Notes under the pieces: generated by a model
What the model was told of the DNA's origin: nothing
Database searches by the model: none
What the model saw: the letters and a program-made list of their open reading frames with translations, nothing else
Program-made: the position numbers and the translations under genes
In this document: positions 31,830 to 57,466 of the stretch, piece by piece
Layout: each line of letters opens with the position of its first letter
How positions within the stretch are numbered: the stretch's first letter is position 1
Virus record (IMG/VR): IMGVR_UViG_3300026549_001031
Source of the DNA: a virus
Lineage: Duplodnaviria > Heunggongvirae > Uroviricota > Caudoviricetes
Direction: 5' to 3' (one strand)
DNA: 64,000 nt

Positions 31830-32654
31830 ATGGAAAAAGTACAAAGAGCCTTATTAACTTTGTTAACTGCTTTCATGGTTTGTACTGTGGCATTTAGTTG
31901 TCATACAACAGCATATGCTAGTTCCTTGGATGACATCACAAATAATGCATCAGCAAGTGATAATAGTAAATCCAGTGGAAGTAGTAAATCACAGTCACAA
32001 GATGACTACAATAAGTCATATATTGATTCATTGCAGTCAGCAACTAACTTAGAGGCAGAGTCAGCTAATGTTTCTAAGGTAAACAGCTATATTCAAAAGA
32101 TTGCATCAGTTCTGGTACAGGTAATTTCATATTTTATTATAGCATTCCTTGTAGTTAGAATCTTGCTTGATATTTGTTATATAGTACTTCCATTTACCAG
32201 AAAGTTCCTTGCCAATGGATATCAAGGACAGCCTTCTCAGGGTCAACCTGGAATGGGTGGCATGGGCATGAACGGCGGCATGGGCATGGGCGGCTTCGGC
32301 GGCGGCATGGGCATGGGAGGTTACGGTAGTAGTTATGGTCGCATGGGTGGCATGGGAATGTCAGGCATGGGCGGCATGGGTGGTATGGGAGGAATGCAGG
32401 GACAAGGAATGGCACCTGCAGGACGTGTTCAGCTTGTGTCAGAGGCAGCCTTAAATGCAGCAGCTCCTGGTAATATGGGAGAAGATGGTAGACCTGTGTC
32501 AGCATTGAAAGTTTATGCTAAAGACATGATGACAACATTGATCTTGACACCTATTCTATTAGTACTTGCTATATCAGGTGTAATATCTAAGCTTGGTTTC
32601 CTTATTGGATACGTTATAGCAAAAGCAGTTTCTTCTTTAGGCAACATGTTTTAG
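31830..32654 (+). CDS. Pilin-like (VirB2-like topology) membrane protein, paralog 1, with Gly/Met-rich loop
   Basis: GGAGG RBS before 31830, signal peptide ending AYA, two TM helices, LDICYIVLPFTR motif, and GMGG repeats. Confidence 0.6.
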   Translation: MEKVQRALLTLLTAFMVCTVAFSCHTTAYASSLDDITNNASASDNSKSSGSSKSQSQDDYNKSYIDSLQSATNLEAESANVSKVNSYIQKIASVLVQVISYFIIAFLVVRILLDICYIVLPFTRKFLANGYQGQPSQGQPGMGGMGMNGGMGMGGFGGGMGMGGYGSSYGRMGGMGMSGMGGMGGMGGMQGQGMAPAGRVQLVSEAALNAAAPGNMGEDGRPVSALKVYAKDMMTTLILTPILLVLAISGVISKLGFLIGYVIAKAVSSLGNMF

Positions 32655-32671
32655 AATGGAGCTAACAGGAT

Positions 32672-32995
32672 ATGAGTAGAACTAGCGAGGTATTAAAAAA
32701 TAAGAACAAGGTAGAAAAAGCTAGAAGAGCTCGTAGAAAGAATGAAATAAACTCATTACGCAGCATCTCAGCTTTTAAAGCTAAGCTTTATGACGAATTG
32801 AAACACATTGAGGTAATTTTACAAGATGAAAATATTGAATCAGTAATCATATATGTGCCTGATAGGTACATGGCTCAATTCAGTAATGCAATATATTCAG
32901 AAGATTTAGCTAGTTATGAAGTAATTCAGGATACAGAAAGTAGTAAAGAGGGCACAAATAGGTTCTTCATTCAGAAGAGATATGTTGCTTTCTAG
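32672..32995 (+). CDS. Hypothetical protein
   Basis: 107 aa; basic N-terminal helix; operon context. Confidence 0.7.
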   Translation: MSRTSEVLKNKNKVEKARRARRKNEINSLRSISAFKAKLYDELKHIEVILQDENIESVIIYVPDRYMAQFSNAIYSEDLASYEVIQDTESSKEGTNRFFIQKRYVAF

Positions 32996-33013
32996 TTTAA
33001 GGAGGACAGACAG

Positions 33014-33406
33014 ATGTCAAAAAATATGAGTTTGCATGACAGATATGCAGAGGTTTCAGAATTGTCTGGTATATCAGAAGAGGTAATCAGAAGAGTTTAT
33101 AAGGCTACACGTACAAGTTTAGTCTCATCACTTACAAGAGGGGAGAAGGCAACATTGCCTGGAATTTGTACAATCAATGCTAGTGTAAGAAATAGAATCA
33201 ACATTGGTGGAGAACAGGAGTCTTATATAAAATTGAAAGCAACACCATCAAGTGCTCTGGCTACAGAGCTTGATAAGCTTTCAGGATTTGAGAGTGCAGA
33301 AGAAAAAGAAGCAGAGCAGAGAGAAGAGGAAGAGAGACTTAAGATTTTGAATATTAAGCAACCTGTTATTACAGTAAGGACTAAGCAGATAAATGCACTG
33401 CTTTAG
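33014..33406 (+). CDS. HU/IHF-like DNA-binding protein
   Basis: EVSELSGISEEVIRRVYKA..SLVSSLTRGEKATLPGICTI..KLKATPSSAL follows the HU fold pattern. Confidence 0.65.
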   Translation: MSKNMSLHDRYAEVSELSGISEEVIRRVYKATRTSLVSSLTRGEKATLPGICTINASVRNRINIGGEQESYIKLKATPSSALATELDKLSGFESAEEKEAEQREEEERLKILNIKQPVITVRTKQINALL

Positions 33407-33422: not shown

Positions 33423-34034
33423 ATGACAGGTCCAACTCATAGACAATATTCAATTTGCTTTGCTTGTTTAGCAGCGATGCTCTTCTTCACAATGGGTATA
33501 TCACATGTAAATTACTATTTAGCACTGCCTATTCTGTTATCTGCATCAAGAGCAGGGGCTTTGTTTCCTGATGTTGATCACAATTGGCAGAATGTTTCTG
33601 ATAAGACAGTGATAAATAAGATTATTAACACCTTAATTCATTTGACAGGTGGAAAACATAGGAGTTGGCAGACACATAGTATTGATATATGTGCTTGGTT
33701 TACAATTATTTCCTACATTATACCGAATAGATTATATCACGCAGGTATTTTGTCAGCAGTAAATAGAGAAGTGGCAACACTCTTACTTTTAGGGTTCAGC
33801 TCTGGTTGGATAAGTCACATATTTGCTGATATGTTGAACGGCGTAGGTGTTAGATTAGTATGCTGGAATAAATTGCATGTGGCATTTGTTCCTAGACAGT
33901 TGTTTGGATTGAGGTTCAACACTGGGCACGAGTGGGAGAACTTTAATTATAAATTAATGAGGATAATTAACGTGATTCTTGGGTGTATTTGTTTAATATA
34001 CCCTCTGATTGTCAAGGGATACATACATTTTTAA
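33423..34034 (+). CDS. YdjM-like membrane metal-dependent hydrolase
   Basis: MTGPTH, GALFPDVDH, HRSWQTHS and SHIFADML..GV motifs. Confidence 0.85.
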   Translation: MTGPTHRQYSICFACLAAMLFFTMGISHVNYYLALPILLSASRAGALFPDVDHNWQNVSDKTVINKIINTLIHLTGGKHRSWQTHSIDICAWFTIISYIIPNRLYHAGILSAVNREVATLLLLGFSSGWISHIFADMLNGVGVRLVCWNKLHVAFVPRQLFGLRFNTGHEWENFNYKLMRIINVILGCICLIYPLIVKGYIHF

Positions 34035-34049
34035 GGAGGTATCATTATT

Positions 34050-34907
34050 ATGAAAAAGAATATGAGACTAAAAGCAGTGCTTATATTGTTAACAGCAATG
34101 CTTATGTGCTTTGGGTCATCAGTAACAGCTTTTGCACATGGTGTAGGCAGAAGTAGTGCAGGAACAAGCAGTAGCGTTGGTACAGACACTACAATTTCTA
34201 GTTATCTTGGTAACATAGACAACTATAATGATATTGACAGGGATTTAAAACAAAAGATTAAGAGAAACTATAGCACAGGTTACAAAGCATATAGTCTAAA
34301 AGATGGTACAACAGTTTATATTGCACCAGGCAATGAAACTAATGTAAGCTCTACAATTAATAACCTTAACAGTAAGGCAGCGGCTGATCAATCTGCAGCA
34401 AATGAGCAGTATGTGCAAAGGCAGGATAGGGCAGCAACAGACCTTGGACAAATATCAGTTACACCTGATATTAAAAAAGCAAATAATATGTTAAGCGGTT
34501 TCATGCCATTGTTAGACATGATTGTATCAGTAGTAATTGTAGGTGTTACATTAGGCATGACACTGTTTACAGCTTTTGATATTTGTTACATTGAATTTCC
34601 TATCTTCAGGAATAAATGTGAGGATGCTAAGGCAAGTGGAAACAAGATGATGACACGTACAGACTCTAAGACAGGCGAGACTAAGCTTAGAATTGTAACT
34701 GATGAAGCACAGTATGCAATTCAGGCAGCAGATACAATTCAATCTGGACAGAATCCATTAGTCATTTACTTTAAGAAGAGATTCGTGGCAATTCTTCTTT
34801 TGGCAATTGTATTGTTCATCCTGCTTACAGGAAATATGTCCGTATTCTCCAAGATTGCACTCAAACTTGTTAGTGGTATCATTAGCATCATTCAGAGTTA
34901 CTCTTAA
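34050..34907 (+). CDS. Pilin-like membrane protein, paralog 2
   Basis: Signal peptide ending AFA, FDICYIEFPIFR motif, two TM helices. Confidence 0.6.
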   Translation: MKKNMRLKAVLILLTAMLMCFGSSVTAFAHGVGRSSAGTSSSVGTDTTISSYLGNIDNYNDIDRDLKQKIKRNYSTGYKAYSLKDGTTVYIAPGNETNVSSTINNLNSKAAADQSAANEQYVQRQDRAATDLGQISVTPDIKKANNMLSGFMPLLDMIVSVVIVGVTLGMTLFTAFDICYIEFPIFRNKCEDAKASGNKMMTRTDSKTGETKLRIVTDEAQYAIQAADTIQSGQNPLVIYFKKRFVAILLLAIVLFILLTGNMSVFSKIALKLVSGIISIIQSYS

Positions 34908-34927: not shown

Positions 34928-35404
34928 ATGGACGTACAAAGTATAATTGATTCCATTAGTGAGAAGGCACAGTCTGATGGAAGTATTGACAGAATACGTT
35001 TCATTGAGCAAACGGACAATATACAACAGATTGCTAACTTCTTGTATGGGTTTGTAACCACAATAATATTACTAGTTGTGCCTCTAGTAATTGCCTTGGA
35101 GGTCATTTATATTTGCTTTCCTTTTATAAGAGATAAATTTGATAAATTACTTATTAAAGTAGAGAGCAAGGGCACTGCAAAGAAAGTGATTGGCTTAGCA
35201 TTAAGAGATGCCAAAGCAGCAGTGTATAAAGCGAATACAACACAAACTGGAGAGTCTGCATTGTATTTATACTTAATCATTAAGTGTAAATCAATGATGT
35301 TCATAATGTTTATCATCTGCATGGTTCTGAAAGGAACAACACCTATTATAATATGGGTATGGCAGATGATTAAGAACATACTTGCTAACATTTGGACATT
35401 CTAA
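34928..35404 (+). CDS. Pilin-like membrane protein, paralog 3
   Basis: LEVIYICFPFIR motif; two TM helices. Confidence 0.6.
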   Translation: MDVQSIIDSISEKAQSDGSIDRIRFIEQTDNIQQIANFLYGFVTTIILLVVPLVIALEVIYICFPFIRDKFDKLLIKVESKGTAKKVIGLALRDAKAAVYKANTTQTGESALYLYLIIKCKSMMFIMFIICMVLKGTTPIIIWVWQMIKNILANIWTF

Positions 35405-35478: not shown

Positions 35479-38139
35479 ATGGGTAAGCTTAAAAAATTGT
35501 TTATAACAGGTTTAATATGTATGGGTGCACTTGGAGTTACAGGATGTACAAATACAGACTTGATGACATCAGCTAAAAATAATTTAAGTACCTCTATTTC
35601 AGATAGGGGTACAGTAAATAAGGAGTATGCTGACCAGTTATACGAGGAGGGTATACTCACAAAAAGTGATAGGGATGCAATAAAAAAGTCTATTAACACT
35701 GTAGTAAAGACATACACAAAAGGTATTGAAAAGTTGGATGAGAAAGATGCATCCGAGAAAGATGCAATGAGCGTATTAAATACCGTGGCTAAGGCAGTAA
35801 GTGATTATACATTGGCTGGTAATGGAAAACCTTCCTATATAGTACAGAGTAATGACAATGGATCATCTACACGGTTAGATTGGCATTCTAATGCTAAGGA
35901 AGAAGGTGGTGGACACTATTGTCCTAAAAATGAGAATGATGAATTTACATGTAGTCCTAAAGTACACCTGATAATGGTAAATAATTATAAGAAAGAACTT
36001 AAAGCAAACTATACAGACTCTTATGTAATGAGTGATTACATTGAGGCATCCTTCTGGGGAGGTAGATGGAAAGGCAATCCTAAGTTAAGTAAACCTAAGA
36101 TTAAAGATGATGGTACATTGAAATATGGAAAAGACAAGAACAATTATGTAGATCCTATCAAGTTTTTAAGTACATCACAGGTAAAACAGCTTAACACAAT
36201 TTCAAAAGTTCAGCTTTGCGTATTAAAATCTAGCATTACAGAAGGTACATTGAATAATGATGATAAAAGCGTACCATCAATTGATGGTGTCTCTGAAATT
36301 ATTAAAAAGACAATAGATAGTTACAAAGATAACAGTATAGATTCAACTAAAGCAGCATCCATTTTGAAAAATTACTTTACAGATGTTAAGGTAGATGATA
36401 AACCTGTATACCTCATAAACAATGAGGAAAAAGGGATGAAGAAGTATAGGCTTGTAGATGTATCAAAGAATAATGATGGTTCACATACTGGCGTAGGGTA
36501 TGATCAGATAGTACCAGATAAAGAATTAACAGATGCATTGCACATATGCTATTTGGAGTTTAATGGGGACTTCCTTGAGAATATGAAGTCATTAGGTTTG
36601 GAGACAACACGTATGTTTCTTCTGAAAGATGGTTCAGCTTGGAAAGCATACCTTATGGAATATCCATTATACACTATTGATGAAATATCAGACACAGGTA
36701 AGAATAATAAGGTCAAAGCTACTTTTAAGAAGTCAGGTTTAGGAGTTAACTTATACACTCAGAAATGGATTAAATACCCTATTAAAAATGGTAGTTATGA
36801 CTATGAGAGTGGTGCAGAGACAAATGTGAAAACTGGATACCTTACATTAGCAGGTGCTAGCAATAATAATGCTACAGGCCAGGCATCAGTTTTACTGAAG
36901 GGTTCAGGTACAAATTATATAGTAGACGGGGCAGGTGTAAAGAGAAGCTTTTTAACAGGAAGATTGATCTTGCAAGATTATTTGGAGGCAACTTATGCAC
37001 CTGGATATACAGATGATGAAAATCTTGTTTGTTTTGGTAGAAAGATGAGAGTTAAGATGACTAACTCTAATTTCTTTAAGGATAAGAATGCACCTAAGAC
37101 ATCTATTAAAGATGATAAGACAGGTGTAACTTCTGAAAAGACAACTGTAAATTACAAGTTTATCAAGGATGAATCTTGTATAACATTTGTAGATCAAAAG
37201 GGCAAGCAAATAGAGAACTCACCTAGTTTGGGTATTACAGACTTGTGTGATGCTAGTGCATTGGACAATTCAGATTATACAAAAGCAACAGTAATAAGCA
37301 TAGTTCCGAATGGAATGAAGCCTGAACATGTAAATGCATCATTTCAACAGGATTCATTACCTAATGAAAATGAGTTGGAATCATATAAAATTGATGATAA
37401 GGGTGCAAAGATAGGTAGTAAGAGCATTACATCAATAAAACCTGCAATAATGTTTCCTGGTAGTTCAATTGATAATGGAGACTATACATCTGATTCCCCT
37501 AAAATACAGAGGTTTTATTGCTTAACTACAACTAAAGGTTTGTTTGACTCAGGTTTGTTTAGTGACTGGATAAATAGTTCTGCATCAACTTGTTCCTTGG
37601 ATTGGTGGAATAAGTTCCTTTCAAAGAATGGATATACATATAAACTTGATCATAATGACATAAATGATTATGTGAGTGGCAATTACAGTTATGAGATAAG
37701 TGAAAATGGTATTGTAGTACTAGACTTAAATGTTGTTGCAGCTATACAGAAGCAGTACAATAAAGAGGCAGATGCTAACAGAGTTATGGCTATAAGGACA
37801 GCATTTAAGGTAATAGGTTATATACTAATAATTTTTAGTATGTTTCTAATGTTGCTTTGGATTGTAGATACAAACATTGATGTTGGTGTTGGTTTCTTAA
37901 ATAAAGTAAGTTTTGGACATTGGCAAGCAGTTAAATACCCTGAAGATATACCTGAAGGCAGCCTGGGAGATGTGGAGTACATGACAGCAGGCAAATTGTT
38001 TATGAGGTGTTTGGTGATTATATCATTGGGTATTTTGCTAATACTTGTAAATGTGTTCGATATAGTTGAAGTACTTCTTAGGTTGTTTGGACCAATAGCA
38101 TTAGCATTAGAAGACTTAATCTCAGGAATGAGAGAATAA
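35479..38139 (+). CDS. Large lipoprotein with C-terminal TM helices (transfer-cluster component)
   Basis: GGAGG RBS before 35479, lipobox-like LGVTGC, and two C-terminal TM segments. Confidence 0.7.
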   Translation: MGKLKKLFITGLICMGALGVTGCTNTDLMTSAKNNLSTSISDRGTVNKEYADQLYEEGILTKSDRDAIKKSINTVVKTYTKGIEKLDEKDASEKDAMSVLNTVAKAVSDYTLAGNGKPSYIVQSNDNGSSTRLDWHSNAKEEGGGHYCPKNENDEFTCSPKVHLIMVNNYKKELKANYTDSYVMSDYIEASFWGGRWKGNPKLSKPKIKDDGTLKYGKDKNNYVDPIKFLSTSQVKQLNTISKVQLCVLKSSITEGTLNNDDKSVPSIDGVSEIIKKTIDSYKDNSIDSTKAASILKNYFTDVKVDDKPVYLINNEEKGMKKYRLVDVSKNNDGSHTGVGYDQIVPDKELTDALHICYLEFNGDFLENMKSLGLETTRMFLLKDGSAWKAYLMEYPLYTIDEISDTGKNNKVKATFKKSGLGVNLYTQKWIKYPIKNGSYDYESGAETNVKTGYLTLAGASNNNATGQASVLLKGSGTNYIVDGAGVKRSFLTGRLILQDYLEATYAPGYTDDENLVCFGRKMRVKMTNSNFFKDKNAPKTSIKDDKTGVTSEKTTVNYKFIKDESCITFVDQKGKQIENSPSLGITDLCDASALDNSDYTKATVISIVPNGMKPEHVNASFQQDSLPNENELESYKIDDKGAKIGSKSITSIKPAIMFPGSSIDNGDYTSDSPKIQRFYCLTTTKGLFDSGLFSDWINSSASTCSLDWWNKFLSKNGYTYKLDHNDINDYVSGNYSYEISENGIVVLDLNVVAAIQKQYNKEADANRVMAIRTAFKVIGYILIIFSMFLMLLWIVDTNIDVGVGFLNKVSFGHWQAVKYPEDIPEGSLGDVEYMTAGKLFMRCLVIISLGILLILVNVFDIVEVLLRLFGPIALALEDLISGMRE

Positions 38140-38162: not shown

Positions 38163-41100
38163 ATGAAAAAAGCTAAAGTACTCTTAAAAAGAATAGTGGC
38201 TGTTGCATTGTGTGTATGCTCTATTAGTTCAGCAGTAATTGCATCAATACCAGTTGCTAAAGCAAGTGGAACTTCAATACTAGGCACTAATGAAGCATTG
38301 GGGTCGCCTGTCTTAAATAACAACTTCCTCTTGGAAGATTGGAACAAATGGGAAATGGTTTGTTGGGGCGTGTTTTTAAGTAACTTCTGTCAGCCTTTGA
38401 TTGATGACTATCAGTCAGCATTTCAAACTACAGGTACAGGAAGTAACGGAGCAGGATATAAAGCTTTATGCTTTGGTAGTGGCAGTGATCAGACAAATAA
38501 TGAGACTATTGAAAAGCTTTGCAATTATGCAATAGCACAGTCTCAGGCTGGTAACAACACTGTTTATGTAGCTTATACAAAGTTGAAGAAAACAAAACAG
38601 CCTGATGGAACAGAGGTTGGACAGCTTGGAAAAAAGAAAGATCCTAATAAGGATGATAAGGTAGTGAGACAGGCACACTTCAAGGATTTCTTCTTCCAGA
38701 TGGAAGAGGATGATGGCACTACAGATGATGCTGATGCAAGTACAGATCCTAATTCATCATCTGGTACAAGTGGATCAACAACACAGGATGATTCAACTTG
38801 GGCTAATTCAAATGACACAACATATCCTTCCGGTACATTGAAAGAATATCAATTAGATCAGTATAATAAATTAGCAATGCTAAAAGAGGGAAAAGTACCT
38901 ACCTTTTATATTAAGAATACAGAGGGTAAATATGTTAAGCTTTTAGATTATACAAATCCTTGGGATGTGCAGATGATATCATTGATGATGAATGCTGTAC
39001 GTAATTCAGATTATAAAAAGACATTTGTAAAAAACTTTGAGAGTTATTGGAGTACTAACCCTGTTGTGACAGCAGATCCATTTGCGAATATAATGGTCAG
39101 CAAGAAAATGTTAATTCCTGCATGCGTAAATCAGAATATTACAACTGATAAACAGGTAAATATCATTAACTCTTGGGTAATGAATCATTACACAAATACA
39201 TATACAGATCAGCAAATTCTGCTAGGGCTTAGACAAAATAACAATGCTACACTTGGTACAAGAAATCTGTTGTTTGAGCCTTATCAAGCAGGATATCCTG
39301 CATTGGGAGAGACAAACATAGGTAGCATAGCATTGATGTACTACGATACAGACACTATAGTTGCTCAGTCATACTTAAATAGTAATAAGGTACCCGAGTA
39401 TGGTAATACCTTATTGACATTGTTTGGACAAAATGCAACTAAAAATAAGCACAAGTACACTCCTAAAATTGAGATTGCAGGCAATGGGGCACGTACAAAG
39501 AAATGGTTTCAGTCTACAACAGATACAGATGCAGTCATAACTAATACATTATATGTTTGTAGTTTATTACCTAATGTGCTCAAGTATAAAGATACAAACA
39601 TTATCAACTATATTGAGGACTTTCAGGGTAATAAAGTAAAACTTATGTCAGATAATCCTGTTGCAATTCCGATTCAGATGCTTACATCTACTGTCAACAA
39701 CGAAAATAAAAAAGGTACTAATCAAGGAGCAGTAAGAAATTTCTATAATACATTGTATCAGGCATATGCAGGTAAGTTAAAGTATTCTGCAGACATGGAT
39801 AGTGATGGTAAGATGGATAAAACATCAATCACTGATGAATTAACAGATACAACATTTGAGGACTTTAAGAATAAAGTAGTAGAGGACAGATTGTTTAAGA
39901 AGTTTAAGAAAATTGATACCCGTTATAAAAAAGTGGGTAATCTTGCTGGGATGTGGAGAGAGTTCTTTGACTATGGTAATGATGAGACATTCAATGATGA
40001 TCATAATAGGGTAATTCTAGCATATCCTGTTTCTGATGTAATGAAAAACGTCAGCAATGTGTTGGGTATAGAGGACGGTACGGAATTTAGTGTGTACTCA
40101 ACAATGATTTATATGACCTACTTAAATTGGTATGGAATCACTAGTACTAACACAATGGCAACAGGTACAGAAAAGACAAGTAAGTTTAGTACAGATATAT
40201 ACAGTGATAACCTTGATATTTTGAAATATGATCCTAGTGCTGATATCAATGCTAAATCAGAAGAGGACATGGAAAAAGAGGTATTACAGTATGGATATTT
40301 AATGTTACATCCTGAAGATGGTAGGTCATATAGAAAGACAATGGCACTAAATGGTTTAGCAGACTGGATGTATGAGGAATACAATAGAATTTGTTATGGT
40401 GGTTCTGATAGCACTTACAATGGTACAGCATCAAGAAGTAATTCAGGCTTCTTAGCAGTTCAGTCATACAAGGAGAATTTCTTAACTAAACCTGTATTAA
40501 ATGCTTATGCTAACTTCTCTGTTTGGGCGATTGCAATATGTGCTATACTGATTGTCTTGGTGGGTATACTAAAACATAGAAAAGCAACTTGGTACTTATT
40601 GAGTTTTATGTTTGCATTTAATGCAATATTGTTGGTACCTGCTTCGGGAGATATAGTACCTTATATTACATCGAACTTCGTTCAGAATATGTTTAGCAGC
40701 AAGATGACTTATTGGTCAATCAGTCAGGGAATAACAAATGCAGCGGCTGAAAAAGAAGCAGCATCTGGAACTTTGGATTCTAGTTCAGACCTGACCAGTG
40801 AGGAGGCTCAAGAGGTCGTTAAATTAGTAAAACAGCTCAATAATGTTTATACTGATAGGTCACTAATGGTTAAGCAAGACATATCACAAAAAGTTACTCA
40901 AAAAGTTTCATCTTCATATTCAAGCATTCAGCAGTTGCAATCAGCAAGATGGTTATTACCTATGGTCATGCAACAGTTTACTGGAGACAAGGGTAATGAG
41001 GAGAATTACATTTATAAATCATTATCTAACATATGGGATGATATGTCAAACTTCTATTGGTATTACAAACCTCAAGATGCTACATTTACAAATGCATCAT

Positions 41101-43383: not shown

Positions 43384-44547
43384 ATGGCAAATGTAACAAG
43401 AAGAAGAAAATATGTAGACAGTGGCGGTGGTATGTTTATACCTATGAATGTAGAGGGAGGTACTTGGAATGAGCATTTCATCACTACTCCTAAACTTGTA
43501 ACCATAGGCTGTATGTTCGCAGCATTGCTATTTTTGTGTTCATACTTAGCAAGTATAAATTCATCAGTAGCAGGCTACATATTGTGGATAGCAGTCTGGT
43601 TTTTCTGTTGCATTCAAATTACTAGGTTTATCATATTTGAGGAAAAGTATTACTATAGAATGTATTTGGAGTTGCAGGAACATGAAATTTCTACACCTTC
43701 ATTATTTTGGAACATTGCATCTATGAATGATACAGAGGATGGAGCAGTTATGACATACTCTGATGGTAAGGTTGGCATTGTAGTTAAAATTGAGCGTGAC
43801 ACAATTACAGGTAAGACAAAGGATTTTGAAGAGACACATTATGATGCGATTTCAGACTTCTATAAAGAGGTCATTAGTAATAGATATTCATTCATGCAAA
43901 TGAATATCATGGAGCAGGCAGGAAAAGATCCTAGACTTGCTGAATTATCAAAGATAGTTTATAAGAGTGACAATGAGAATATTTGCAAGCTTATGGAGAT
44001 GGAGGTCGGTCACATTAAGAATATCACTCATAAGTCATTATATGAAAGCGATTACTTCTTGTTTTATACAAATGACATTACAAAAGTAGATACAATCATA
44101 CAGGACATTACAGAGTGCATATTTAAGTTACTTGATGGAGCATATATAGGTTTTCAGATACTTACAAGTAAAGGTATAGTTGACCTGGTAAAGGAGATAT
44201 ATGGCGTTAACTATTTTAACTCTACAGAAGCTAGTTTGTTGATGTTTAGTGATGAGTATAAGGCAACGGTTCCTCCTTTCAACCTTGTAGGTCTGAAGTG
44301 GACAGATGGAAATGTGCAAGAGTTAACACCTGCAGAAAGAAATAGACTCAGAAACATAACTAGTAGTGTAGTTAATGGTAGCATTGATATGGGAGAGGTA
44401 TCCTTGAAAAAGGCAGTATATAGAAAGGAAGAAAAGAATAATATATTTGATGATATGGGTATTGAAGAGCTCAAGAGCAATATTGAGAATTTCAGTACAG
44501 ATATAGTTAATGAATCATCAGACGATGATGAATACATAGACATATAA
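43384..44547 (+). CDS. Two-TM protein with soluble domain (VirB3/PrgI-like position and topology)
   Basis: N-terminal TM hairpin, soluble alpha/beta domain and acidic tail; upstream of the VirB4-like gene. Confidence 0.5.
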   Translation: MANVTRRRKYVDSGGGMFIPMNVEGGTWNEHFITTPKLVTIGCMFAALLFLCSYLASINSSVAGYILWIAVWFFCCIQITRFIIFEEKYYYRMYLELQEHEISTPSLFWNIASMNDTEDGAVMTYSDGKVGIVVKIERDTITGKTKDFEETHYDAISDFYKEVISNRYSFMQMNIMEQAGKDPRLAELSKIVYKSDNENICKLMEMEVGHIKNITHKSLYESDYFLFYTNDITKVDTIIQDITECIFKLLDGAYIGFQILTSKGIVDLVKEIYGVNYFNSTEASLLMFSDEYKATVPPFNLVGLKWTDGNVQELTPAERNRLRNITSSVVNGSIDMGEVSLKKAVYRKEEKNNIFDDMGIEELKSNIENFSTDIVNESSDDDEYIDI

Positions 44548-48919: not shown

Positions 48920-51109
48920 ATGTTTGGGAAGAAAAGTAATCAGAAAAAAGGAAATGACTTAAGTAAAAGAAAAAACAACGCTCAATTAAATAGTGAGGCA
49001 GAGAGAAAACTTAAGGCATTGGGTCAAATGAGTACACGTAGTGATGTGAGAAGATCTAAAAGAAAAGAAAAGTTAGACATGTATGATATGATTGTGGCTA
49101 ACTTGGTTGCAGGTAATTCAATTATCGAGCCTGAGCAGAAGTTGGATAGTAGTCAGCTGGCGATAGGGTTTAGCAATATTTCCTCAGAGACACAGCTTAC
49201 AAAATATTTCATGATCAGTAAGTTTCCTGACTTCCTCAAGCCTAAGTTGATTGATACCATTAGAACAAGGTGTATGATGCCTGGTTTGAAAATAAACTTC
49301 TACTTCAATGCTCAACCTCACCGTATCAATTGGGATTCACAGGAAATGATTAGTAGGATGAACATTTGGAAACAATATGCAGCTAAGCATGATGGACCTG
49401 TAGACGTATTCCAATATAGAAAACAGCATGGTGAGGCAGCAGCACGTAATCGAATGATTATGTCTACTAAATACTTGAATGAGGCAGAGTTGGAATATAA
49501 GAGAAGCTTTATGAAAGTTTACTTCATCATTGAGGTTTCAGCTAAACGAACAGAGGAAAGTTTAGCAAACATGAGTGAGGCAATTTTGAAATTAAAAGAA
49601 ATGTGCAATCACTCTGATATAAAGCTTACAGAATTAAGAGTAAACATGATTGATTGGGTTAAGACCATTGGTCCTTTTAGTCTTAAGTCTATAAAAGAAA
49701 TGAATGGTAAACTTGCTAAAAGAGTTCTGACAGATGATTTGTTAGCTAACTTTAACAGTTATAAGCAAGGACGTGTTGGAATTAAGGGAGTACCTCTTGG
49801 AATTGATATTCTTAACAATGGTCCTGTAATGAGAGTGTTTAAGGAAGATCCTGATGGAGCAGATAATTGGTTGATTGCTGCAGCTACTGGTGGTGGTAAA
49901 TCATATTGGTTAAAAACATTATTAACATATCTGTTAGCTGAGGGCTTCATTACTTGTATAATGGACTATGAGGGTGATGAATATACGCGTTTTGCTAACT
50001 TTGTAAGGGCAGGAAATCCTGAGGATGTTAAGATAGTATCAATGGGTAAGGGCAGCACAGTTTATTTTGATCCTTGTGAAATTCCTGATTTAACAGGTGA
50101 TCCTGAAGTAGATGATACATTGAAAAAGAGTGCAATAAGTTTTATACTGTCTGTCTTTAGAATTATAGTTAATGGACTTGAGGGAGTTTTAACAAAAGAG
50201 GAAGAGCGTGTTATTTCACTAGCAATACAGAGGGTATATGATAGTGTGGGTGTTACAGATGATAAAGAGACATGGCATAGATCAAAAGGACTTAGGTTGA
50301 GTATGATCTATGATGAAATCAAATTCATGGTTGATAACAAAGAGCTTGTAGATGATGCTTCAGACAACTTGAAACATAAAGCTGCAGTATCAATTTTGGA
50401 TTCAGCAAGTGTTTATTTTGAAGAGGGTGAAGCAAAATATGGTACATTCAAGAATCCTATGTCTGCAAATGAATTATATAAAGCTAAACTTGTTGTTTTC
50501 TCGTTTGGTATGCAAGGAGAGGATCAAGAGTCATCAGATCCTACAGAGCTAGCATTGAAGCAGTTGAGTGTAGCATATGTAAATATTAAGATCAGCAACT
50601 ATTGTAAGTATGTTAGACATTGTTTCAATGTTAAGGTTTGGGAAGAGTTTCAGAGATATGGTGAAGCAAAAGGTAGTGCATCTACAATAGCTAACGTAAT
50701 CACTGGTGGTCGTAAGAGGGGTGATGTTAATTTCATCATTACAAATGACTTGGGTGCAATGCTGGATGATGAAAACCTCCTGTCACAAAAGATTATACAG
50801 AACATTCAGAATTATGCAATTGGAAAAATCAAGGATACAAAGATAAGGAGAAAGTTCTGTGAGAAGCTAGACTTACAAGATGTACTTCCTGCACTTGATA
50901 ATATAGCTAAGGCACATACAGCTAGACAGAATGGTTCTAAAAAGGCATCTGGTGCACAGAGTAGATACAAAAATGCTTTCTGCATTGTACTTGAAGAAGG
51001 AAAGAAAGCAGTTGTTAAAGTTAATTTGCCTCCTGCATTAAGAGAGTCAAACTTGTTTAAGACAGGAGTTGACACGAAAGAGGAGGAAGAGAGCAGGGAG
51101 GAAAGTTAA
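48920..51109 (+). CDS. virB4: VirB4-like (HerA/FtsK superfamily) conjugation ATPase
   Basis: NWLIAAATGGGKS Walker A, IMDYEGDEY, FDP, KVWEEFQRY Walker B, and GGRKRG motif. Confidence 0.75.
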   Translation: MFGKKSNQKKGNDLSKRKNNAQLNSEAERKLKALGQMSTRSDVRRSKRKEKLDMYDMIVANLVAGNSIIEPEQKLDSSQLAIGFSNISSETQLTKYFMISKFPDFLKPKLIDTIRTRCMMPGLKINFYFNAQPHRINWDSQEMISRMNIWKQYAAKHDGPVDVFQYRKQHGEAAARNRMIMSTKYLNEAELEYKRSFMKVYFIIEVSAKRTEESLANMSEAILKLKEMCNHSDIKLTELRVNMIDWVKTIGPFSLKSIKEMNGKLAKRVLTDDLLANFNSYKQGRVGIKGVPLGIDILNNGPVMRVFKEDPDGADNWLIAAATGGGKSYWLKTLLTYLLAEGFITCIMDYEGDEYTRFANFVRAGNPEDVKIVSMGKGSTVYFDPCEIPDLTGDPEVDDTLKKSAISFILSVFRIIVNGLEGVLTKEEERVISLAIQRVYDSVGVTDDKETWHRSKGLRLSMIYDEIKFMVDNKELVDDASDNLKHKAAVSILDSASVYFEEGEAKYGTFKNPMSANELYKAKLVVFSFGMQGEDQESSDPTELALKQLSVAYVNIKISNYCKYVRHCFNVKVWEEFQRYGEAKGSASTIANVITGGRKRGDVNFIITNDLGAMLDDENLLSQKIIQNIQNYAIGKIKDTKIRRKFCEKLDLQDVLPALDNIAKAHTARQNGSKKASGAQSRYKNAFCIVLEEGKKAVVKVNLPPALRESNLFKTGVDTKEEEESREES

Positions 51110-51288: not shown

Positions 51289-53646
51289 GTGGGAATAAGT
51301 TTGAATAACGTATCAGAAGCTGATAAGCAGAGAGTTTCAGATATGAGGAATCATCCTCAATATGAGTCAGGCTTTGAAGATGAATCTGGTGGTGATGGAA
51401 GTGAGGAGGATTTATTCAACGACATGTTTGGCGACGGTGATGGTTTTGGAGATTTTGGGAACGACAATGATGGGTTTGATAGTTTCACTAGTGGTGGTTC
51501 AGACTCAGGTTCAAGCTCAAGCTTTAGCTCTGGTGGTTTTGGAAATGACACTTTCAATAATGGGAACAACAATGGCTTTGGAAATAATACATTCAGCAGT
51601 AATGGGTTTGGCACTAATACATTTAACAGTAACAATACCTTTGGTAATACTGGTTTTGGTGGGTTTGGAGCACAACCTCAGCAACAACAGCAACAGGCAC
51701 AGCCTGATAGAATGGATGCAGTAGTAGATGCAAGTGTTGACCTTGCTAAAGATTTTGGTTCAGTATTAGGAGAAATGTTTCACAGTATTAAGTTGAGAAA
51801 TGCAGATGATTTTGGATACTTAAGTCGTAACCTAATAATGGCTGGTGCAGGATTTGCAGCTGCTGGCATTGTATTAAGTTTGATAGGTCTTGCAGGTCAA
51901 ATTGGAGTACTTAGGTTCTTTGGTTTCTCACATAATTTGGTATTTTGTGGAGCATTATCATTATGTAGTGGAATCATTGGTATGGGAACTTCAGCGTTGG
52001 TTCTTATGAAAGTTGGCGGAGAGATTGCAGAGAATGACAATGTAGATTCTTTACAGGACATACCTGATAGTGATGATAATCATACACAAGAGTATTCAGA
52101 CAATATAGATGATATATTGAATGACCTGTTTCAGGATGAGGATGATAGTGGTTTTATGGATGATACAAGTGAGTTGCAAGAGGACGAGCCTGAAGAACAG
52201 GGAGAGTCACTTGAGTTAGAAGAGGATGAGGCACCTGAAATGGATCCTGGACCTTTAGATTTGACTGATGCACTTGATAATATTAGAGGCAATCAGGTAA
52301 TTTCAAGAGAGACACTGTTTAATACATTCAAACCTTTGTTTCCGACTAACACAAGAGGTTTCTCAGACGTAACAGAAATCGAACCTGACAGTGATGTGTT
52401 TAATACACTTGAGACTTATTGTATTAAAGCATTAGCAATTTTAGCTAACTGTGAGGAAGAGGAAGTAAACAGTGAATTATGCAGTGCTAAAGAGAATTAT
52501 TTCTCTTATGAATTAAGATTGAAGCGTATCAACAAGGTTAAGAGAACAGATATGCTAGCAACTGAAATCGAGAACTACATGAGGTCAAGTAGTGATGATG
52601 ATTCAGTTAATGCAACTGTTTCAATTGAGGGAGACTTCTACAAGATAATTGTTACAAAGGGTGTTACAGCGGTAGTTACTTTTGGAGATGTATTTCAGCA
52701 GCAATATTGTTGTGACTTCTTCTTAAATGCTAAGAATCAGCTTCCAATGATTGCTGGTATCAATGAGTTAGGTGAGGTAATGCTTGAGGATGCTAAGATA
52801 TTTGACACTATGATGATTGCTGGTAAGCCTAGGTCAGGTAAGTCATGGTACGTATTAGGAGTGTTAGCAAGCTTAATGTTGTTTAATCCTCCTGAATCAG
52901 TTCAGTTCATCATAGTAGATCCTAAGGGGTCTCACTTGTTTAAGACTTTGGCACTTATGCCTCATGTGTGTGGACTTCATGATGATAGTCATATACTTGA
53001 TATATTAGATGACATCATTAACGTTGAAGCTCCTAGACGTAAAGAGTTGTTAGATGCACATGAAGTCGATGATATCTGGGGTCTTAGAAAGAAGGGCGTT
53101 ATGTTACCTGTGCTTTACTTGGTAATTGATGAGTATATGTCAGTACTTGGTAATTTGGGTAAGGATAGAAAAGAAGAGTTTGACACTAAAATCAAAATTC
53201 TTATCAGTCAGTTACCTTCGTTAGGCATTAGACTTATATTCGTACCTCATAGAGCAATGGGTGTCGTTGATAAGACAAACAGAACAATGATTCAATTTGC
53301 AGCAGCAGTAAGGGCTAACGTAGATGATGTAAAAGATACATTGAGTATTCAGAAGTGGTCACGTGCTTTAACAAATCAAGGTGACGTGGCAATTAAGTCA
53401 TCATCAATGAAAAACGCAATGTTTGTAAGAGGCGCAGCGTTAACAACTTCTGATGAGAGCAACTCAACGTTTATTGAGACAGCTGCAAAGGCATTCTATA
53501 AAATGGGTGTTGATTTACCTGACATGAGTACAATGAGGTTTGCAGTAAATAGAGATGAGGATACAATAAGAGAGCAGTTAGTTGGTAATGGAAACAGAAT
53601 TCAATATGATGCAGCAGCTACTATAGCAGAGGCAGACGCGATTTAG
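51289..53646 (+). CDS. Membrane-bound FtsK/SpoIIIE-domain ATPase (TcpA-like coupling protein candidate) with FG-rich N-terminus
   Basis: Two TM helices; MIAGKPRSGKS, IVDPKG and LVIDEY motifs. Confidence 0.8.
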   Translation: MGISLNNVSEADKQRVSDMRNHPQYESGFEDESGGDGSEEDLFNDMFGDGDGFGDFGNDNDGFDSFTSGGSDSGSSSSFSSGGFGNDTFNNGNNNGFGNNTFSSNGFGTNTFNSNNTFGNTGFGGFGAQPQQQQQQAQPDRMDAVVDASVDLAKDFGSVLGEMFHSIKLRNADDFGYLSRNLIMAGAGFAAAGIVLSLIGLAGQIGVLRFFGFSHNLVFCGALSLCSGIIGMGTSALVLMKVGGEIAENDNVDSLQDIPDSDDNHTQEYSDNIDDILNDLFQDEDDSGFMDDTSELQEDEPEEQGESLELEEDEAPEMDPGPLDLTDALDNIRGNQVISRETLFNTFKPLFPTNTRGFSDVTEIEPDSDVFNTLETYCIKALAILANCEEEEVNSELCSAKENYFSYELRLKRINKVKRTDMLATEIENYMRSSSDDDSVNATVSIEGDFYKIIVTKGVTAVVTFGDVFQQQYCCDFFLNAKNQLPMIAGINELGEVMLEDAKIFDTMMIAGKPRSGKSWYVLGVLASLMLFNPPESVQFIIVDPKGSHLFKTLALMPHVCGLHDDSHILDILDDIINVEAPRRKELLDAHEVDDIWGLRKKGVMLPVLYLVIDEYMSVLGNLGKDRKEEFDTKIKILISQLPSLGIRLIFVPHRAMGVVDKTNRTMIQFAAAVRANVDDVKDTLSIQKWSRALTNQGDVAIKSSSMKNAMFVRGAALTTSDESNSTFIETAAKAFYKMGVDLPDMSTMRFAVNRDEDTIREQLVGNGNRIQYDAAATIAEADAI

Positions 53647-53780: not shown

Positions 53781-55391
53781 ATGAATTTTTCAAGTAGCAT
53801 GATGTCTGGAATGGGTATAAGTCTTGGCGGTTTAGAGATTGCAACTGATTATTTATATGCTAACCCTGAGTTTTATGAACCTGACTTGACAGAGGTCAAG
53901 GCTACTATATCAAATAAACCTAATAAGCAGTTAAAACCTAGGGTAAAGCCTGTAAAACCTAAGGTATCTAAAGAGAGTATCATTAGTAAATATAGTATTA
54001 TACAGCCTAAACTGAAAGTGACAGCAGATGAGGTCATTGAGGATGATATGGTTGTGCAGGATGATAAGGATTTTGACTTCTCATTTGATGACTTTGACAT
54101 GGGAGATAGTAAACAGGGACAATTAGAAAACGAAGTAGATAACATTGATGAAACAGAGACAGAGGAACAGGTTGTTTCAGATGCAGACTTAATAAATCAG
54201 ATGTTAATGCAGCAATTAGCAGGAAGGACAAGTGAAGTTTATGAGTCAGGCAGTGGCTCAGAGGATGGGGACGAAGTAGAAAACAAGATGGACATGGATA
54301 AAGATGAATTAGACAATGAAATGGATGAAGATGATGCACTCCTAAATGAAATGTTTGGCAACGAGGAAGAGGATTCAGACAGTGATGATGAGTTACTTGC
54401 AGAGATGTTTGATGACGAGGACAGTGATGAAGAGTCAGAATCATATGAGGAAGAGTCAGATACAGAGGAAATAGAGAAAGCACCAGTGAGTTTTGAGGTT
54501 CAGGCACCTCAGAATCAAGTTGAATCTGCTGATAGTACACAAGAGATTGAAGATACAGACAGTTATAGCGAAGAGTCAGACATAGAAGATGATGACGATT
54601 TATTAAATGAAATGTTTGATGATGAGGATGATAACTATGATGAGGAAGAGACAGACAGTTATGAAGATGGGGATACAGATGAAGATGATTTAGCAGACAC
54701 CACAGAAGACGAAACATACAATGAGGAAAATGAATTAAACAGTGCAGAGTATGAACAAGACAGCAGCGAAGATGATGAGGAAGAGTCAGATGATGATCTA
54801 CTTGCTGAAATGTTTGGCGACGACATGGATGAATCAGAATATGATGAAAATGAGGATGATTCAGACATTGAGGAAAATGAAGAATATCCTGAGTTAGAGG
54901 ATGATGAGCCTGAAGTTGATGTGTCAGACAATGAATCTGAATTGAGTAGTTTACCTACCAGCATTTCAGAAAATCAAAAAAGCATTGAAGAAAAATCGAG
55001 AGAGCAAGTTCAAGGAATCAATGTTTCGAATGAGAGTAAAGTCACCAGTGAGAATAGTGAAGAGAGTCTTCAGAAAAAGTTAGCAGAAGCTATGGCTGAA
55101 ATAGAAAGGCTTAAAAACGGTTCAAGTAAACCTGCTGATAAAGAAGAGGCTACTAAAGATGATGCATCTGATAAAATAGAAAATAAAAAAGATAAATATA
55201 TGATGTATGCTGGCATGTCAACAGAAAAGTTGTATGGTCAGGTTAAAGAGTTTATGATTGCATCTAATGTTTCAAAGAAGCCTGTTGATTTAGCAGTGCT
55301 CTATGATAAGTTTGGAGATGCTAATGTAAAGAAGTTAATACATAAAAGTTATTTAATAAAATTAGGAAAAGGAGTAACAATAGGACGATGA
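53781..55391 (+). CDS. Second highly acidic repeat protein
   Basis: Asp/Glu tract with four DxLL(N/A)EMF repeats; small basic C-terminal domain. Confidence 0.8.
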   Translation: MNFSSSMMSGMGISLGGLEIATDYLYANPEFYEPDLTEVKATISNKPNKQLKPRVKPVKPKVSKESIISKYSIIQPKLKVTADEVIEDDMVVQDDKDFDFSFDDFDMGDSKQGQLENEVDNIDETETEEQVVSDADLINQMLMQQLAGRTSEVYESGSGSEDGDEVENKMDMDKDELDNEMDEDDALLNEMFGNEEEDSDSDDELLAEMFDDEDSDEESESYEEESDTEEIEKAPVSFEVQAPQNQVESADSTQEIEDTDSYSEESDIEDDDDLLNEMFDDEDDNYDEEETDSYEDGDTDEDDLADTTEDETYNEENELNSAEYEQDSSEDDEEESDDDLLAEMFGDDMDESEYDENEDDSDIEENEEYPELEDDEPEVDVSDNESELSSLPTSISENQKSIEEKSREQVQGINVSNESKVTSENSEESLQKKLAEAMAEIERLKNGSSKPADKEEATKDDASDKIENKKDKYMMYAGMSTEKLYGQVKEFMIASNVSKKPVDLAVLYDKFGDANVKKLIHKSYLIKLGKGVTIGR

Positions 55392-57466
55392 AAAAGAGAG
55401 TTGTAGCAATGATGTTAGTAGTGATAAGCTGTATTTCACTTACAGGATGTGCATCGTTTCTTCATGAGGACGTTGCAAAATATCCTTTAGTAAATCAGCT
55501 GACAAATCAGGAAGTCGTTGATTATTATGCTAAAGCATTAGATTATGATGCTGTCGTTGATAAGAATGTAACTGTACATGAAACTACTTACGAAGTTAAG
55601 GACGTTCAGGGTTCAAAAGAGACAGTACTTAAAGATTTAGTGTCACAGGCAGAGGGAATCCTAAGCGCTGGAGAATATGATAAGACGCCTGAAACAAAGA
55701 AGGTATTGAGTGAGGATACTTATAACTATTTGAAGGCAACATTGGATAATGAGCAGTTATCTGATGGACAGATTCAGAGTATTAAGGGAGCATTAGGTTA
55801 CTACTTTGTAGACGTTAAGTATAATGTGGGTCCTGCAGAGTCAGGAGAGTTTGAGCCTGCAGCTTCAATGTTAGGGCTTGATGGTGTTTGGATTAGCAAG
55901 CATGATGGCTCAGCAGAGGTTGATGCAGCATACTTAAGCAATATAGCTGATAAGCTTAATAAGTATTTTGAGGAAAATGTAATTGATGATGAAGTCACAG
56001 TTACAGATGATGGAGTACTTGAGTTTAAGAGTTTAGCAGGTGATAGCAGCAGTGATAACAGCGATACAGATGATGGTTCAAATGCAGGCGATTATGATGT
56101 TTCAATTCCTGGCGCTGAAGAAGATCAGGGTAACAGTGATGATGTTACAAGTGACACAGCTGTAAATGGAGAGGACATTGACAATGAATCAATCAAGAGT
56201 AATTATACAGATACAATACCTGATGATAGAAAGATCAAGATTGATTTAAGTTTGATCAACAGGGTGGTTGGTTCATCACTTGCAGAGAAAGCGTTTCTTC
56301 CTTCACTTGATACAGTGTACAAGACACCTGAAAACAGTAATGTAGGTGGTTATGGTGTTTATCCTGCAGGTTCTGAAGGACTTAAGCTTTTTGGTTTTAA
56401 CAGAGATGATCTTGCTGGTGATGTTACAATCAGGTATGTGTTTAAGGATGCAGATGATGCTTCTGGAAACATTGTTGGAACAAATGCTTACGTTACAACA
56501 GAAAATATTACAAATGGATTTAATGTTTCAGACCAGAATGTAATTATTCCTGACTTCTTAAATGATCAGCTGGACGAGATTATTGAGAGAGCAGACAGAG
56601 TTCAGTCAAATGTAGACTTATCAGGTATGTTATCAGGTAATGTTTATGCAGACTTAGGACCTGCAGTGTTAGCAGGATTCAAGGACGAGAGCAGTAGAAC
56701 TTTGAAATATATGTCTACTATAAGACAGGTACTTGCAAGAGATACTGCTGACAATGCTTATTTGGTAGAGGTTGAGACAACTTTAACAGATGGTCCTCGT
56801 TCAGTTGATTGCTATGGTACTTACAAAGATAAGTATTATGCAGTAATTCAGCAGAAAGGAAACAGTTTCTTAATTACTGACATGTTAAGAGTTGCACGAG
56901 AAATGACTGGTGAGCCTCCTATTTATCCGAACTCTTCTACAGAAAAGAGATTGGTTGCATTGAATTTAGCAGGTGAGGTTGCAGAGGATGATAAGACAGA
57001 CATTAAGAGTTTAATGGGAGATCTTTATCAGGCTTGTACATACAGGATTTTGAAAGCTAAAGACGATGATGGAAATTATAAGAAGATTAAAGTAAATGGC
57101 AAGACACAGGAAATTAAACGAGGCATGTATGATTGCTTTGATAAAGATAGGACAATGCTTACTAAACAGCAGGGTGAGTACATTACATCTTATTTGAGAG
57201 GCAAGTTAACAAAGTATGGTGCAAATGTTGGATCTCAGTTGAGTGGAACAATTACAGAGTGGATTGGTGGTTATGACAATCAGGCAGAGTTCACTACAGA
57301 GGAATTGATTCAGTACGACGGTAGAGATACAGGATATTACATGACAGTTTATTACCTGGTTTCAAAAATGGGTGATGATTGGGCAATAGATGAAAGAAAA
57401 GTCATGAGTGAAGAAGAAGTGACAGGCAATGATTTGTCTAATGCAGTGGATAGAATTACAAACTAG
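55388..57466 (+). CDS. Large acidic lipoprotein
   Basis: Lipobox ISLTGC; ATGA coupling to the upstream gene. Confidence 0.75.
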   Translation: MKKRVVAMMLVVISCISLTGCASFLHEDVAKYPLVNQLTNQEVVDYYAKALDYDAVVDKNVTVHETTYEVKDVQGSKETVLKDLVSQAEGILSAGEYDKTPETKKVLSEDTYNYLKATLDNEQLSDGQIQSIKGALGYYFVDVKYNVGPAESGEFEPAASMLGLDGVWISKHDGSAEVDAAYLSNIADKLNKYFEENVIDDEVTVTDDGVLEFKSLAGDSSSDNSDTDDGSNAGDYDVSIPGAEEDQGNSDDVTSDTAVNGEDIDNESIKSNYTDTIPDDRKIKIDLSLINRVVGSSLAEKAFLPSLDTVYKTPENSNVGGYGVYPAGSEGLKLFGFNRDDLAGDVTIRYVFKDADDASGNIVGTNAYVTTENITNGFNVSDQNVIIPDFLNDQLDEIIERADRVQSNVDLSGMLSGNVYADLGPAVLAGFKDESSRTLKYMSTIRQVLARDTADNAYLVEVETTLTDGPRSVDCYGTYKDKYYAVIQQKGNSFLITDMLRVAREMTGEPPIYPNSSTEKRLVALNLAGEVAEDDKTDIKSLMGDLYQACTYRILKAKDDDGNYKKIKVNGKTQEIKRGMYDCFDKDRTMLTKQQGEYITSYLRGKLTKYGANVGSQLSGTITEWIGGYDNQAEFTTEELIQYDGRDTGYYMTVYYLVSKMGDDWAIDERKVMSEEEVTGNDLSNAVDRITN

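What the first reader, a model, noticed from the sequence alone, without database searches (positions are those of the whole stretch)
31830..57466. Divergent ~26-kb conjugation-like machine of a giant Firmicutes element
Seen: a co-oriented cluster with three pilin-like paralogs, an 886-aa lipoprotein, a 1715-aa polytopic protein, a VirB3-like protein, a MinD/CpaE-like ATPase, a VirB4-like ATPase, an FtsK-type membrane ATPase and another lipoprotein. HU-like and YdjM-like genes are embedded in it. Known: Gram-positive T4SSs use VirB4 plus a coupling protein; FtsK-like TcpA does this in pCW3 and FtsK-like TraB moves dsDNA in Streptomyces. Inference: the gene set and sizes do not match the Tn916, pCW3 or pCF10 layouts I know. 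No relaxase, VirD4 or cell-wall hydrolase is visible, so this may be an uncharacterised transfer-system class.
Basis: partly seen in the sequence, partly recalled or inferred. Interest (0 to 1): 0.8.

Follow-up and report, generated by a model that had tools for sequence, protein, structure and literature searches.

The report
Gut relative of pXO16 transfer locus
This gene cluster is the gut-bacterial counterpart of the conjugation locus of pXO16, a giant Bacillus plasmid whose DNA-transfer starter enzyme has never been found; that system, regarded as nearly unique, turns out to be shared by a large family of 250-600 kb gut and digester plasmids.

Summary
The cluster is real but not an uncharacterised class. 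It is homologous and colinear to the conjugation ('tip') region of pXO16 from Bacillus thuringiensis israelensis: nine window genes match in identical order (VirB4-like 30%, E 5e-76).

A closed 264.6-kb relative (IMG/VR) shares 23 genes with pXO16 in the same circular order. In it I found no MOBP, MOBT or MOBM relaxase, VirD4, terminase, capsid or sheath. The window's own element is probably about 465 kb (human-gut contig, VirB4 99% identical).

Supported: a divergent VirB4; a TcpA/FtsK-type coupling ATPase; a 692-aa lipoprotein with VirB8-like tandem NTF2 domains. Not supported: 'pilin' and 'VirB3'. Differences from pXO16: no NlpC/P60 hydrolase in the locus (relatives carry one elsewhere), two added lipoproteins and a degenerate MinD-like ATPase.

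Hundreds of relatives exist; I found no paper describing them. One nested subclade reads TAG as serine (45/60 conserved columns). Transfer itself is inferred from homology to pXO16, not shown. The scan reached a pXO16-type reading before on another genome (e1-5324961).

The parts
29100..29888 (+). 262-aa conserved protein of unknown function upstream of the locus; homolog at the same place in pXO16
   Evidence: profile hit E 1.2e-5, HHalign 86%
30260..31687 (+). clamp-loader-like AAA+ ATPase (DnaX/HolB type), directly upstream as in pXO16
   Evidence: Pfam DNA_pol3_delta2 E 6e-28; 28% to pXO16, E 7e-50
31830..32654 (+). small membrane protein, paralog 1 (function unknown; pilin not supported)
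   Evidence: HHalign 95% to paralog 2; weak hit to a pXO16 paralog
32672..32995 (+). 107-aa conserved protein, unknown
   Evidence: 35-65% in G001, G002, G005; no pXO16 match
33014..33406 (+). HU-like DNA-binding protein
   Evidence: Pfam Bac_DNA_binding E 0.006, below cut-off; conserved in relatives
33423..34034 (+). YdjM-family membrane protein; same family as the pXO16 gene at this position and as pCW3 TcpI
   Evidence: Pfam E 8e-11; pXO16 E 1e-6; TcpI E 0.001
34050..34907 (+). small membrane protein, paralog 2
   Evidence: pXO16 homolog E 2e-9; weak TrbL/VirB6 hit E 0.001
34928..35404 (+). small membrane protein, paralog 3
   Evidence: HHalign 97% to paralog 2
35479..38139 (+). 886-aa lipoprotein with a C-terminal membrane anchor; ectodomain without a match; anchor shared with two pXO16 proteins outside the tip region, one of them a glucosaminidase
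   Evidence: 344 relatives; model pLDDT 83, no fold match; anchor HHalign 96% and 93%; Pfam on the pXO16 protein
38163..43310 (+). 1715-aa polytopic membrane protein; candidate VirB6-like channel subunit (inference from size, topology and conservation only)
   Evidence: homolog of the 1834-aa pXO16 protein, profile E 5e-62; no match to TcpH/Orf15
43384..44547 (+). 387-aa protein with two N-terminal TMs, conserved in pXO16 and both other Bacillus plasmid types; VirB3 identity not supported
   Evidence: profile E 3e-28 to pXO16; HHalign 1% to TcpE/Orf17
44573..47278 (+). MinD/CpaE-like protein with degenerate P-loop and FG/GF-rich linker
   Evidence: Pfam AAA_31 E 2e-7; motif; homolog in B. subtilis plasmid E 1e-9, none clear in pXO16
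47411..48826 (+). 471-aa conserved soluble protein with central coiled coil, always directly before VirB4
   Evidence: pXO16 homolog profile E 1e-6
48920..51109 (+). divergent VirB4-like ATPase
   Evidence: 30% to pXO16, E 5e-76; HHalign 96% to FATA VirB4; conserved Walker A and B
51289..53646 (+). FtsK/TcpA-type membrane ATPase, presumed coupling protein or DNA pump
   Evidence: Pfam FtsK_SpoIIIE E 4e-12; HHalign 96% to TcpA/Orf21, 0.7% to VirD4; groups with pXO16
53781..55391 (+). 536-aa protein, variable, with a conserved C-terminal domain of about 60 aa (possibly DNA-binding; not tested)
   Evidence: no Pfam hit
55388..57466 (+). 692-aa lipoprotein with tandem NTF2-like domains, VirB8/TcpC-like
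   Evidence: model pLDDT 76; Foldseek TcpC 3UB1 E 3.6e-4, OrfG 7PKW E 4e-3; NTF2 folds up to Z 11.7, TcpC Z 8.6

Best explanation
The cluster is the mating-pair and DNA-pump operon of a pXO16-type conjugative megaplasmid (about 465 kb) of a gut Firmicute, probably Clostridia. Shown: homology and gene order with pXO16; ATPase families; NTF2-like folds; absence of the tested relaxase families in closed relatives. Inferred: VirB4 with the 387- and 471-aa proteins assembles a membrane channel from the 1715-aa protein, the three paralogs and YdjM; the VirB8-like lipoprotein and the 886-aa lipoprotein extend it through the wall, opened by an NlpC/P60 hydrolase encoded elsewhere; the FtsK/TcpA-type hexamer pumps DNA. 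How transfer starts is open. I favour (about 0.55 within this model) single-strand transfer started by an unrecognised nickase or by the plasmid's own replication proteins (SNF2 helicase, gyrase, DnaB follow the locus in relatives), because single-strand transfer was reported for pXO16.
For: Best plasmid hits are pXO16 copies, no phage hit. Nine genes colinear with pXO16. Closed 264.6-kb relative G005 has the whole cluster and 23 pXO16 homologs in the same circular order. VirB4 and FtsK trees put the gut proteins with pXO16 and two other Bacillus plasmid types, apart from FA/FATA proteins. ParM-like actin, ParB-HNH, gyrase and DnaB shared with pXO16. The pXO16 tip locus (25 kb, 16 CDS, two ATPases, one hydrolase) is needed for transfer (PMC9673590); ssDNA transfer reported (PMC6199540).
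Against: No transfer shown for any gut member. Identity to pXO16 is only 20-30%; the 886-, 692-, 536- and 107-aa proteins have no counterpart in the pXO16 locus. The VirB4 profile does not retrieve TcpF, Orf16 or PrgJ by HMMER and has no PDB hit. NTF2 folds are common and TcpC is not the top hit. Both trees have long branches meeting. I could not read the primary tip papers, so tip boundaries and which gene is TipB are inferred from size and Pfam.
Confidence: 0.85

Rival explanations
1. Same machine, but relaxase-free: the FtsK-type hexamer moves double-stranded or otherwise uncut DNA, as TraB does in Streptomyces and as suggested for TcpA. This would explain pXO16's capture of non-mobilisable plasmids and long chromosome pieces. 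It is a sub-case of the best explanation, not an alternative to it.
For: No relaxase family found in closed pXO16 or the closed B. velezensis plasmid (six families) or in G005 (MOBP, MOBT, tyrosine recombinase). The ATPase matches FtsK/EccC structures and TcpA, not VirD4. The TcpA dsDNA suggestion is in PMC12857230.
Against: pXO16 was reported to transfer ssDNA (PMC6199540). TcpA-type proteins work with relaxases in Tn916 and pCW3. Failure to detect a relaxase by HMM does not prove absence.
Confidence: 0.3
2. The element is a jumbo phage or phage-plasmid, and the cluster serves packaging, entry or superinfection rather than conjugation.
For: Seven relatives are filed in IMG/VR; genes almost all on one strand, tRNA arrays and tmRNA; a TAG-recoded subclade, a trait known from phages.
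Against: No terminase, HK97 capsid or sheath above noise in any record searched, including closed G005 and pXO16 (the weak terminase rows are the FtsK P-loop); no hit in 50,697 phage genomes; pXO16 is a proven conjugative plasmid.
Confidence: 0.05
3. A protein-secretion or contact-dependent system (type VII-like) on a large plasmid, with DNA transfer absent or secondary.
For: FtsK domain scores as well with EccC/EssC as with FtsK.
Against: Only one FtsK domain, no WXG100 or other type VII parts seen; VirB4- and VirB8-like partners; the homologous pXO16 locus is needed for DNA transfer.
Confidence: 0.06

Closest known systems
pXO16 (pBTHD789-1, NC_018516) tip locus, Bacillus thuringiensis sv. 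israelensis
   Same: Homologs in the same order: upstream 262-aa gene, clamp loader, small membrane paralogs, YdjM, giant membrane protein, 387-aa and 471-aa proteins, VirB4, FtsK; one-strand coding; shared backbone in relatives; no known relaxase or VirD4.
   Different: 20-30% identity; no NlpC/P60 hydrolase inside the locus; added 886-aa and 692-aa (VirB8-like) lipoproteins and a MinD-like domain; relatives carry tRNA arrays and tmRNA (pXO16 has none); gut or digester origin; 250-600 kb.
Unnamed 215-kb B. velezensis (NZ_CP076292) and 143-kb B. subtilis (NZ_CP032858) plasmids
   Same: 387-aa-like, MinD-like AAA, 471-aa-like, VirB4, FtsK in order; typed non-mobilizable.
   Different: Hydrolases (C40 and glucosaminidase, or M23) lie in the locus; longer FtsK; more distant than pXO16.
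pCW3 Tcp and Tn916 (MPF_FA with TcpA-type coupling protein)
   Same: FtsK-like coupling ATPase, VirB4, NTF2-type VirB8 (TcpC), YdjM-family TcpI.
   Different: No detectable homology for VirB3, VirB6, hydrolase or relaxase; different order; VirB4 outside the FA pair.
Hodor gut megaplasmids (PMC12934698)
   Same: Giant, gut, Bacillota, often misfiled as phages, VirB4.
   Different: Hodors have VirD4, a MOBH-like relaxase, sortases and 44-47% GC; none of the first two found here.

Membership tests
pXO16-type tip system | Two ATPases (VirB4-like and FtsK-like) homologous to those of pXO16 | tested here: met
   30% E 5e-76 and 25% E 6e-30; trees
pXO16-type tip system | Conserved order of the accessory membrane genes | tested here: met
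   nine pairs, rank correlation 1.0
pXO16-type tip system | Cell-wall hydrolase (TipB) inside the locus | tested here: not met
   710-aa NlpC/P60 gene of pXO16 has no homolog in the window; NlpC/P60 genes lie elsewhere in G001 and G005; rest of the window's own element not available
pXO16-type tip system | No known relaxase on the replicon | tested here: inconclusive
   none in closed G005 (MOBP, MOBT, tyrosine recombinase by HMM; four relaxases by phmmer) or partial G001/G002; own replicon not searchable
pXO16-type tip system | Large circular plasmid coded on one strand with pXO16 backbone genes | tested here: met
   met in relatives: G005 closed, 214 of 220 ORFs on one strand, 23 colinear homologs; window all on +; 465-kb contig not shown to be circular
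pXO16-type tip system | Self-transfer, mobilisation and retro-mobilisation | not testable with these tools
   needs matings
MPF_FA (Tn916, pCW3) | VirB4 of the FA clade | tested here: not met
   HMMER finds neither TcpF nor Orf16; HHalign 65%; outside their pair in the tree, long branches
MPF_FA (Tn916, pCW3) | TcpA-type coupling protein | tested here: met
   HHalign 96% over 111 columns
MPF_FA (Tn916, pCW3) | TcpE/Orf17, TcpH/Orf15, hydrolase and MOBT or MOBM relaxase in the module | tested here: not met
   no hits
MPF_FATA (pCF10, pLS20) | VirD4-type coupling protein and MOBP/MOBQ relaxase | tested here: not met
   PF02534, PF03432, PF03389 absent from the records searched; HHalign 0.7%
VirB8/TcpC family (692-aa lipoprotein) | Membrane-anchored tandem NTF2-like domains | tested here: inconclusive
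   NTF2-like fold found, TcpC among Foldseek hits at E 3.6e-4, but unrelated NTF2 proteins score as well; no sequence support
Tailed phage | Terminase, capsid, tail genes | tested here: not met
   PF03237, PF05065, PF04984 absent from closed G005; PF03354 absent from G001, G002 and pXO16; highly divergent virion genes could be missed

The most novel reading that the evidence does not exclude
pXO16 is one member of an old, widespread third class of Gram-positive conjugation system (VirB4 outside MPF_FA and MPF_FATA, FtsK pump, no known relaxase) carried by 140-600 kb plasmids that typing tools call non-mobilizable or file as phages. The gut members move DNA without a classical relaxase and could mobilise host chromosomes as pXO16 does. 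One lineage has switched to TAG = serine, so some amber-serine 'phage' contigs may be such plasmids.
Probability: 0.35. Interest if true: 0.85.

Novelty: new variant of a known kind. Interest (0 to 1): 0.58.

Why it matters
pXO16 transfers 350 kb in minutes, captures plasmids without oriT and moves chromosome pieces of at least 791 kb, yet its relaxase and oriT are unknown and it was treated as unique (PMC9673590). A family of hundreds of divergent, colinear relatives, with closed members, narrows the search for the missing initiator to about a dozen shared backbone genes and names which tip genes are core. If the gut members behave like pXO16 they are an overlooked route of gene flow among gut Clostridia that MOB typing and phage databases mislabel. 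The TAG-serine subclade would be a conjugative element with its own genetic code.

Tried and rejected
No whole genome was held for the window, and the 465-kb and 483-kb contigs were not searchable. Hodor megaplasmids and pELF linear plasmids were read and rejected as the match. The 886-aa lipoprotein gave no Pfam hit in 55 members, no Foldseek hit at E<=0.001, best Z 6.6 on helices only, and no usable Atlas hit; this does not show a new fold. The idea that it shares a membrane module with the three paralogs or the 1715-aa protein failed. PDB sequence searches with the VirB4 and 471-aa profiles gave nothing or coiled-coil noise. Positional pairs with pXO16 for the 107-, 130-, 536-, 692- and 901-aa proteins showed no homology. 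The promoter scan was near chance (91 vs 75 +/- 9). Code 4 does not open L037. No long TAG-recoded contig was found in IMG/VR, so no suppressor tRNA could be sought. A weak MOBH-like hit in the B. velezensis plasmid is below cut-off (HD-domain gene). The IQ-TREE run for FtsK did not finish; a FastTree run replaced it.
Full report
Observation. All genes of the window lie on the + strand at about 35% GC. The cluster 31830-57466 holds 15 ORFs with gaps mostly under 140 bp. Pfam and NCBIfam confirm YdjM, a MinD/ParA-like domain and FtsK, and give weak HU and VirB4 signals. The three small membrane proteins are true paralogs (HHalign 92-97%), but nothing marks them as pilins. The 387-aa protein has no profile similarity to VirB3 proteins. 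The MinD-like P-loop lacks its lysine.

Identification. A tblastn of the VirB4-like protein against 72,556 plasmids returned only 21 records: ten copies of the 350-kb B. thuringiensis plasmid (30%, E 5e-76), two 215-kb and nine 136-155-kb Bacillus plasmids, all typed non-mobilizable. There was no phage hit. pBTHD789-1 is pXO16 (PMC6199540). Around the hit lie homologs of the 262-aa gene, clamp loader, YdjM, the paralogs, the 1715-, 387- and 471-aa proteins, VirB4 and FtsK, in the window's order. The stretch is about 25 kb and fits the description of the tip locus: 16 CDS, two ATPases, one wall hydrolase, no identified relaxase or oriT (PMC9673590). I could not read the primary papers, so the exact tip limits are my inference.

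The family. The VirB4-like protein has at least 395 relatives at 90% clustering, many on contigs of 450-600 kb; the 886-aa lipoprotein has 344 at 50% clustering. A 464,735-bp human-gut contig carries a 99% identical VirB4 and is 90-93% identical in DNA over the locus. The core order is kept in about 30 loci from gut and bioreactor assemblies. Two short contigs in one Lachnospiraceae MAG give a weak host hint. G001 and G002 (268 and 250 kb, partial) share with pXO16 an SNF2 helicase, gyrase A and B and a DnaB-like helicase; G001 also shares ParB-HNH, a 5'-3' exonuclease and a ParM-like actin. G005 is closed (264,603 bp, terminal repeat), codes 214 of 220 ORFs on one strand, holds the cluster, and has 23 pXO16 homologs in the same order around the whole circle. 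This makes common descent of the whole replicon, not just the locus, very likely.

What is absent. MOBP, T, C, V, Q, F and H models and VirD4 found nothing above cut-off in pXO16, the B. velezensis plasmid, G001 or G002. In G005, MOBP, MOBT, tyrosine recombinase, terminase, capsid and sheath models found nothing, and phmmer with four relaxases and two VirD4s found nothing. Controls rang in each case, though MOBC only below cut-off. The window's own replicon could not be searched.

Parts. The VirB4-like profile aligns to PrgJ/pLS20 VirB4 at 96% over 260 columns that reach into the N-terminal half, and to TcpF/Orf16 at 65%. It is very divergent: HMMER misses those proteins. The FtsK-like protein aligns to TcpA/Orf21 at 96% and to VirD4 at 0.7%. 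In both trees the gut proteins group with pXO16, with long-branch caveats. The 692-aa lipoprotein folds into tandem NTF2-like domains, with TcpC and OrfG among the hits; I read it as the VirB8 analogue, with the caveat that the fold is common. The 886-aa lipoprotein folds confidently but matches nothing. Its C-terminal anchor is homologous to two pXO16 proteins outside the locus, one a glucosaminidase, and it sits where the B. velezensis plasmid has its hydrolases. A wall-associated role is therefore plausible but unproven. The NlpC/P60 gene inside the pXO16 locus (probably TipB) is missing here; G001 has an 894-aa membrane-anchored NlpC/P60 protein about 55 kb downstream and G005 has two NlpC/P60-like genes elsewhere.

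Mechanism. Most likely a T4SS-like channel with VirB4 as assembly motor and the FtsK/TcpA-type hexamer as pump (0.85). Initiation is open: ssDNA transfer was reported for pXO16, whereas TcpA's likeness to FtsK has prompted a dsDNA model (PMC12857230). All of this is inference from homology; no transfer or expression was tested.

Side finding. Four related contigs are fragmented under code 11 (coding density 0.00-0.46) and open when TAG is read (0.90-0.97). At conserved columns TAG stands against Ser in 45 of 60 cases, as AGT does (25 of 33), and against Gln in 2. The three recoded VirB4s form one clade nested among code-11 members. TAG as Ser has been reported for phage-assigned metagenome contigs (Ivanova 2014, as cited in PMC4695839); I found no report for a conjugative element. 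The window itself uses code 11, with TAG ending 16 of 54 genes.

Verdict. A new variant of a known but poorly understood system. My searches of open-access papers found no description of the gut family; subscription papers were not searchable. The scan noted a pXO16-type element on another genome earlier; I had reached that reading independently.

Noticed in passing
L037 (ERZ1643251 node 1055), L032, L038, L061; also L117: A nested clade of these elements reads TAG as serine: 45 of 60 conserved TAG columns are Ser, 2 Gln; 182 TAG codons in nine L037 genes. No suppressor tRNA in the short loci held.
   Followed up: partly
L006:12294-14414, L007, L008, L009, L011, L013, L015, L018, L039, L058: A 470-710-aa ORF family with a weak Mom (PF25680) hit is inserted at several different sites in and near the locus, up to three copies per element; behaves like a mobile gene. 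Absent from the window.
   Followed up: partly
window:12660-16375: Tad-like cassette (T2SSE ATPase, TadB/TadC-like, prepilin peptidase); the ATPase is only 227 aa and appears to lack its N-terminal half, so the cassette may be decaying. G005 has a 516-aa TadA-like gene.
   Followed up: partly
window:10570-11448: Non-coding 880-bp stretch with 13 copies of GATGCA in degenerate repeats (69 in the whole window); possible iteron or regulatory array.
   Followed up: no
G001 (L069-L076), G002 (L077-L084), G005: tRNA arrays (26, 18 and 9 genes) and a tmRNA in G001 and G002; pXO16 has none.
   Followed up: partly
window:44573-47278 and 51289-51750: FG/GF-rich low-complexity stretches on the MinD-like and FtsK-like proteins; the FG repeats are kept in the FtsK alignment consensus.
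   Followed up: partly
window:2954-4228, 9042-9998, 57594-58652, 60364-61092: Cargo: Eco57I-type methyltransferase, HipA-like kinase, TelA and a PIN7 protein; TelA follows the locus in several close relatives in place of the SNF2 helicase.
   Followed up: no
IMG/VR records G001-G007: Seven members are filed as viruses although no terminase, capsid or sheath gene was found in those searched.
   Followed up: yes
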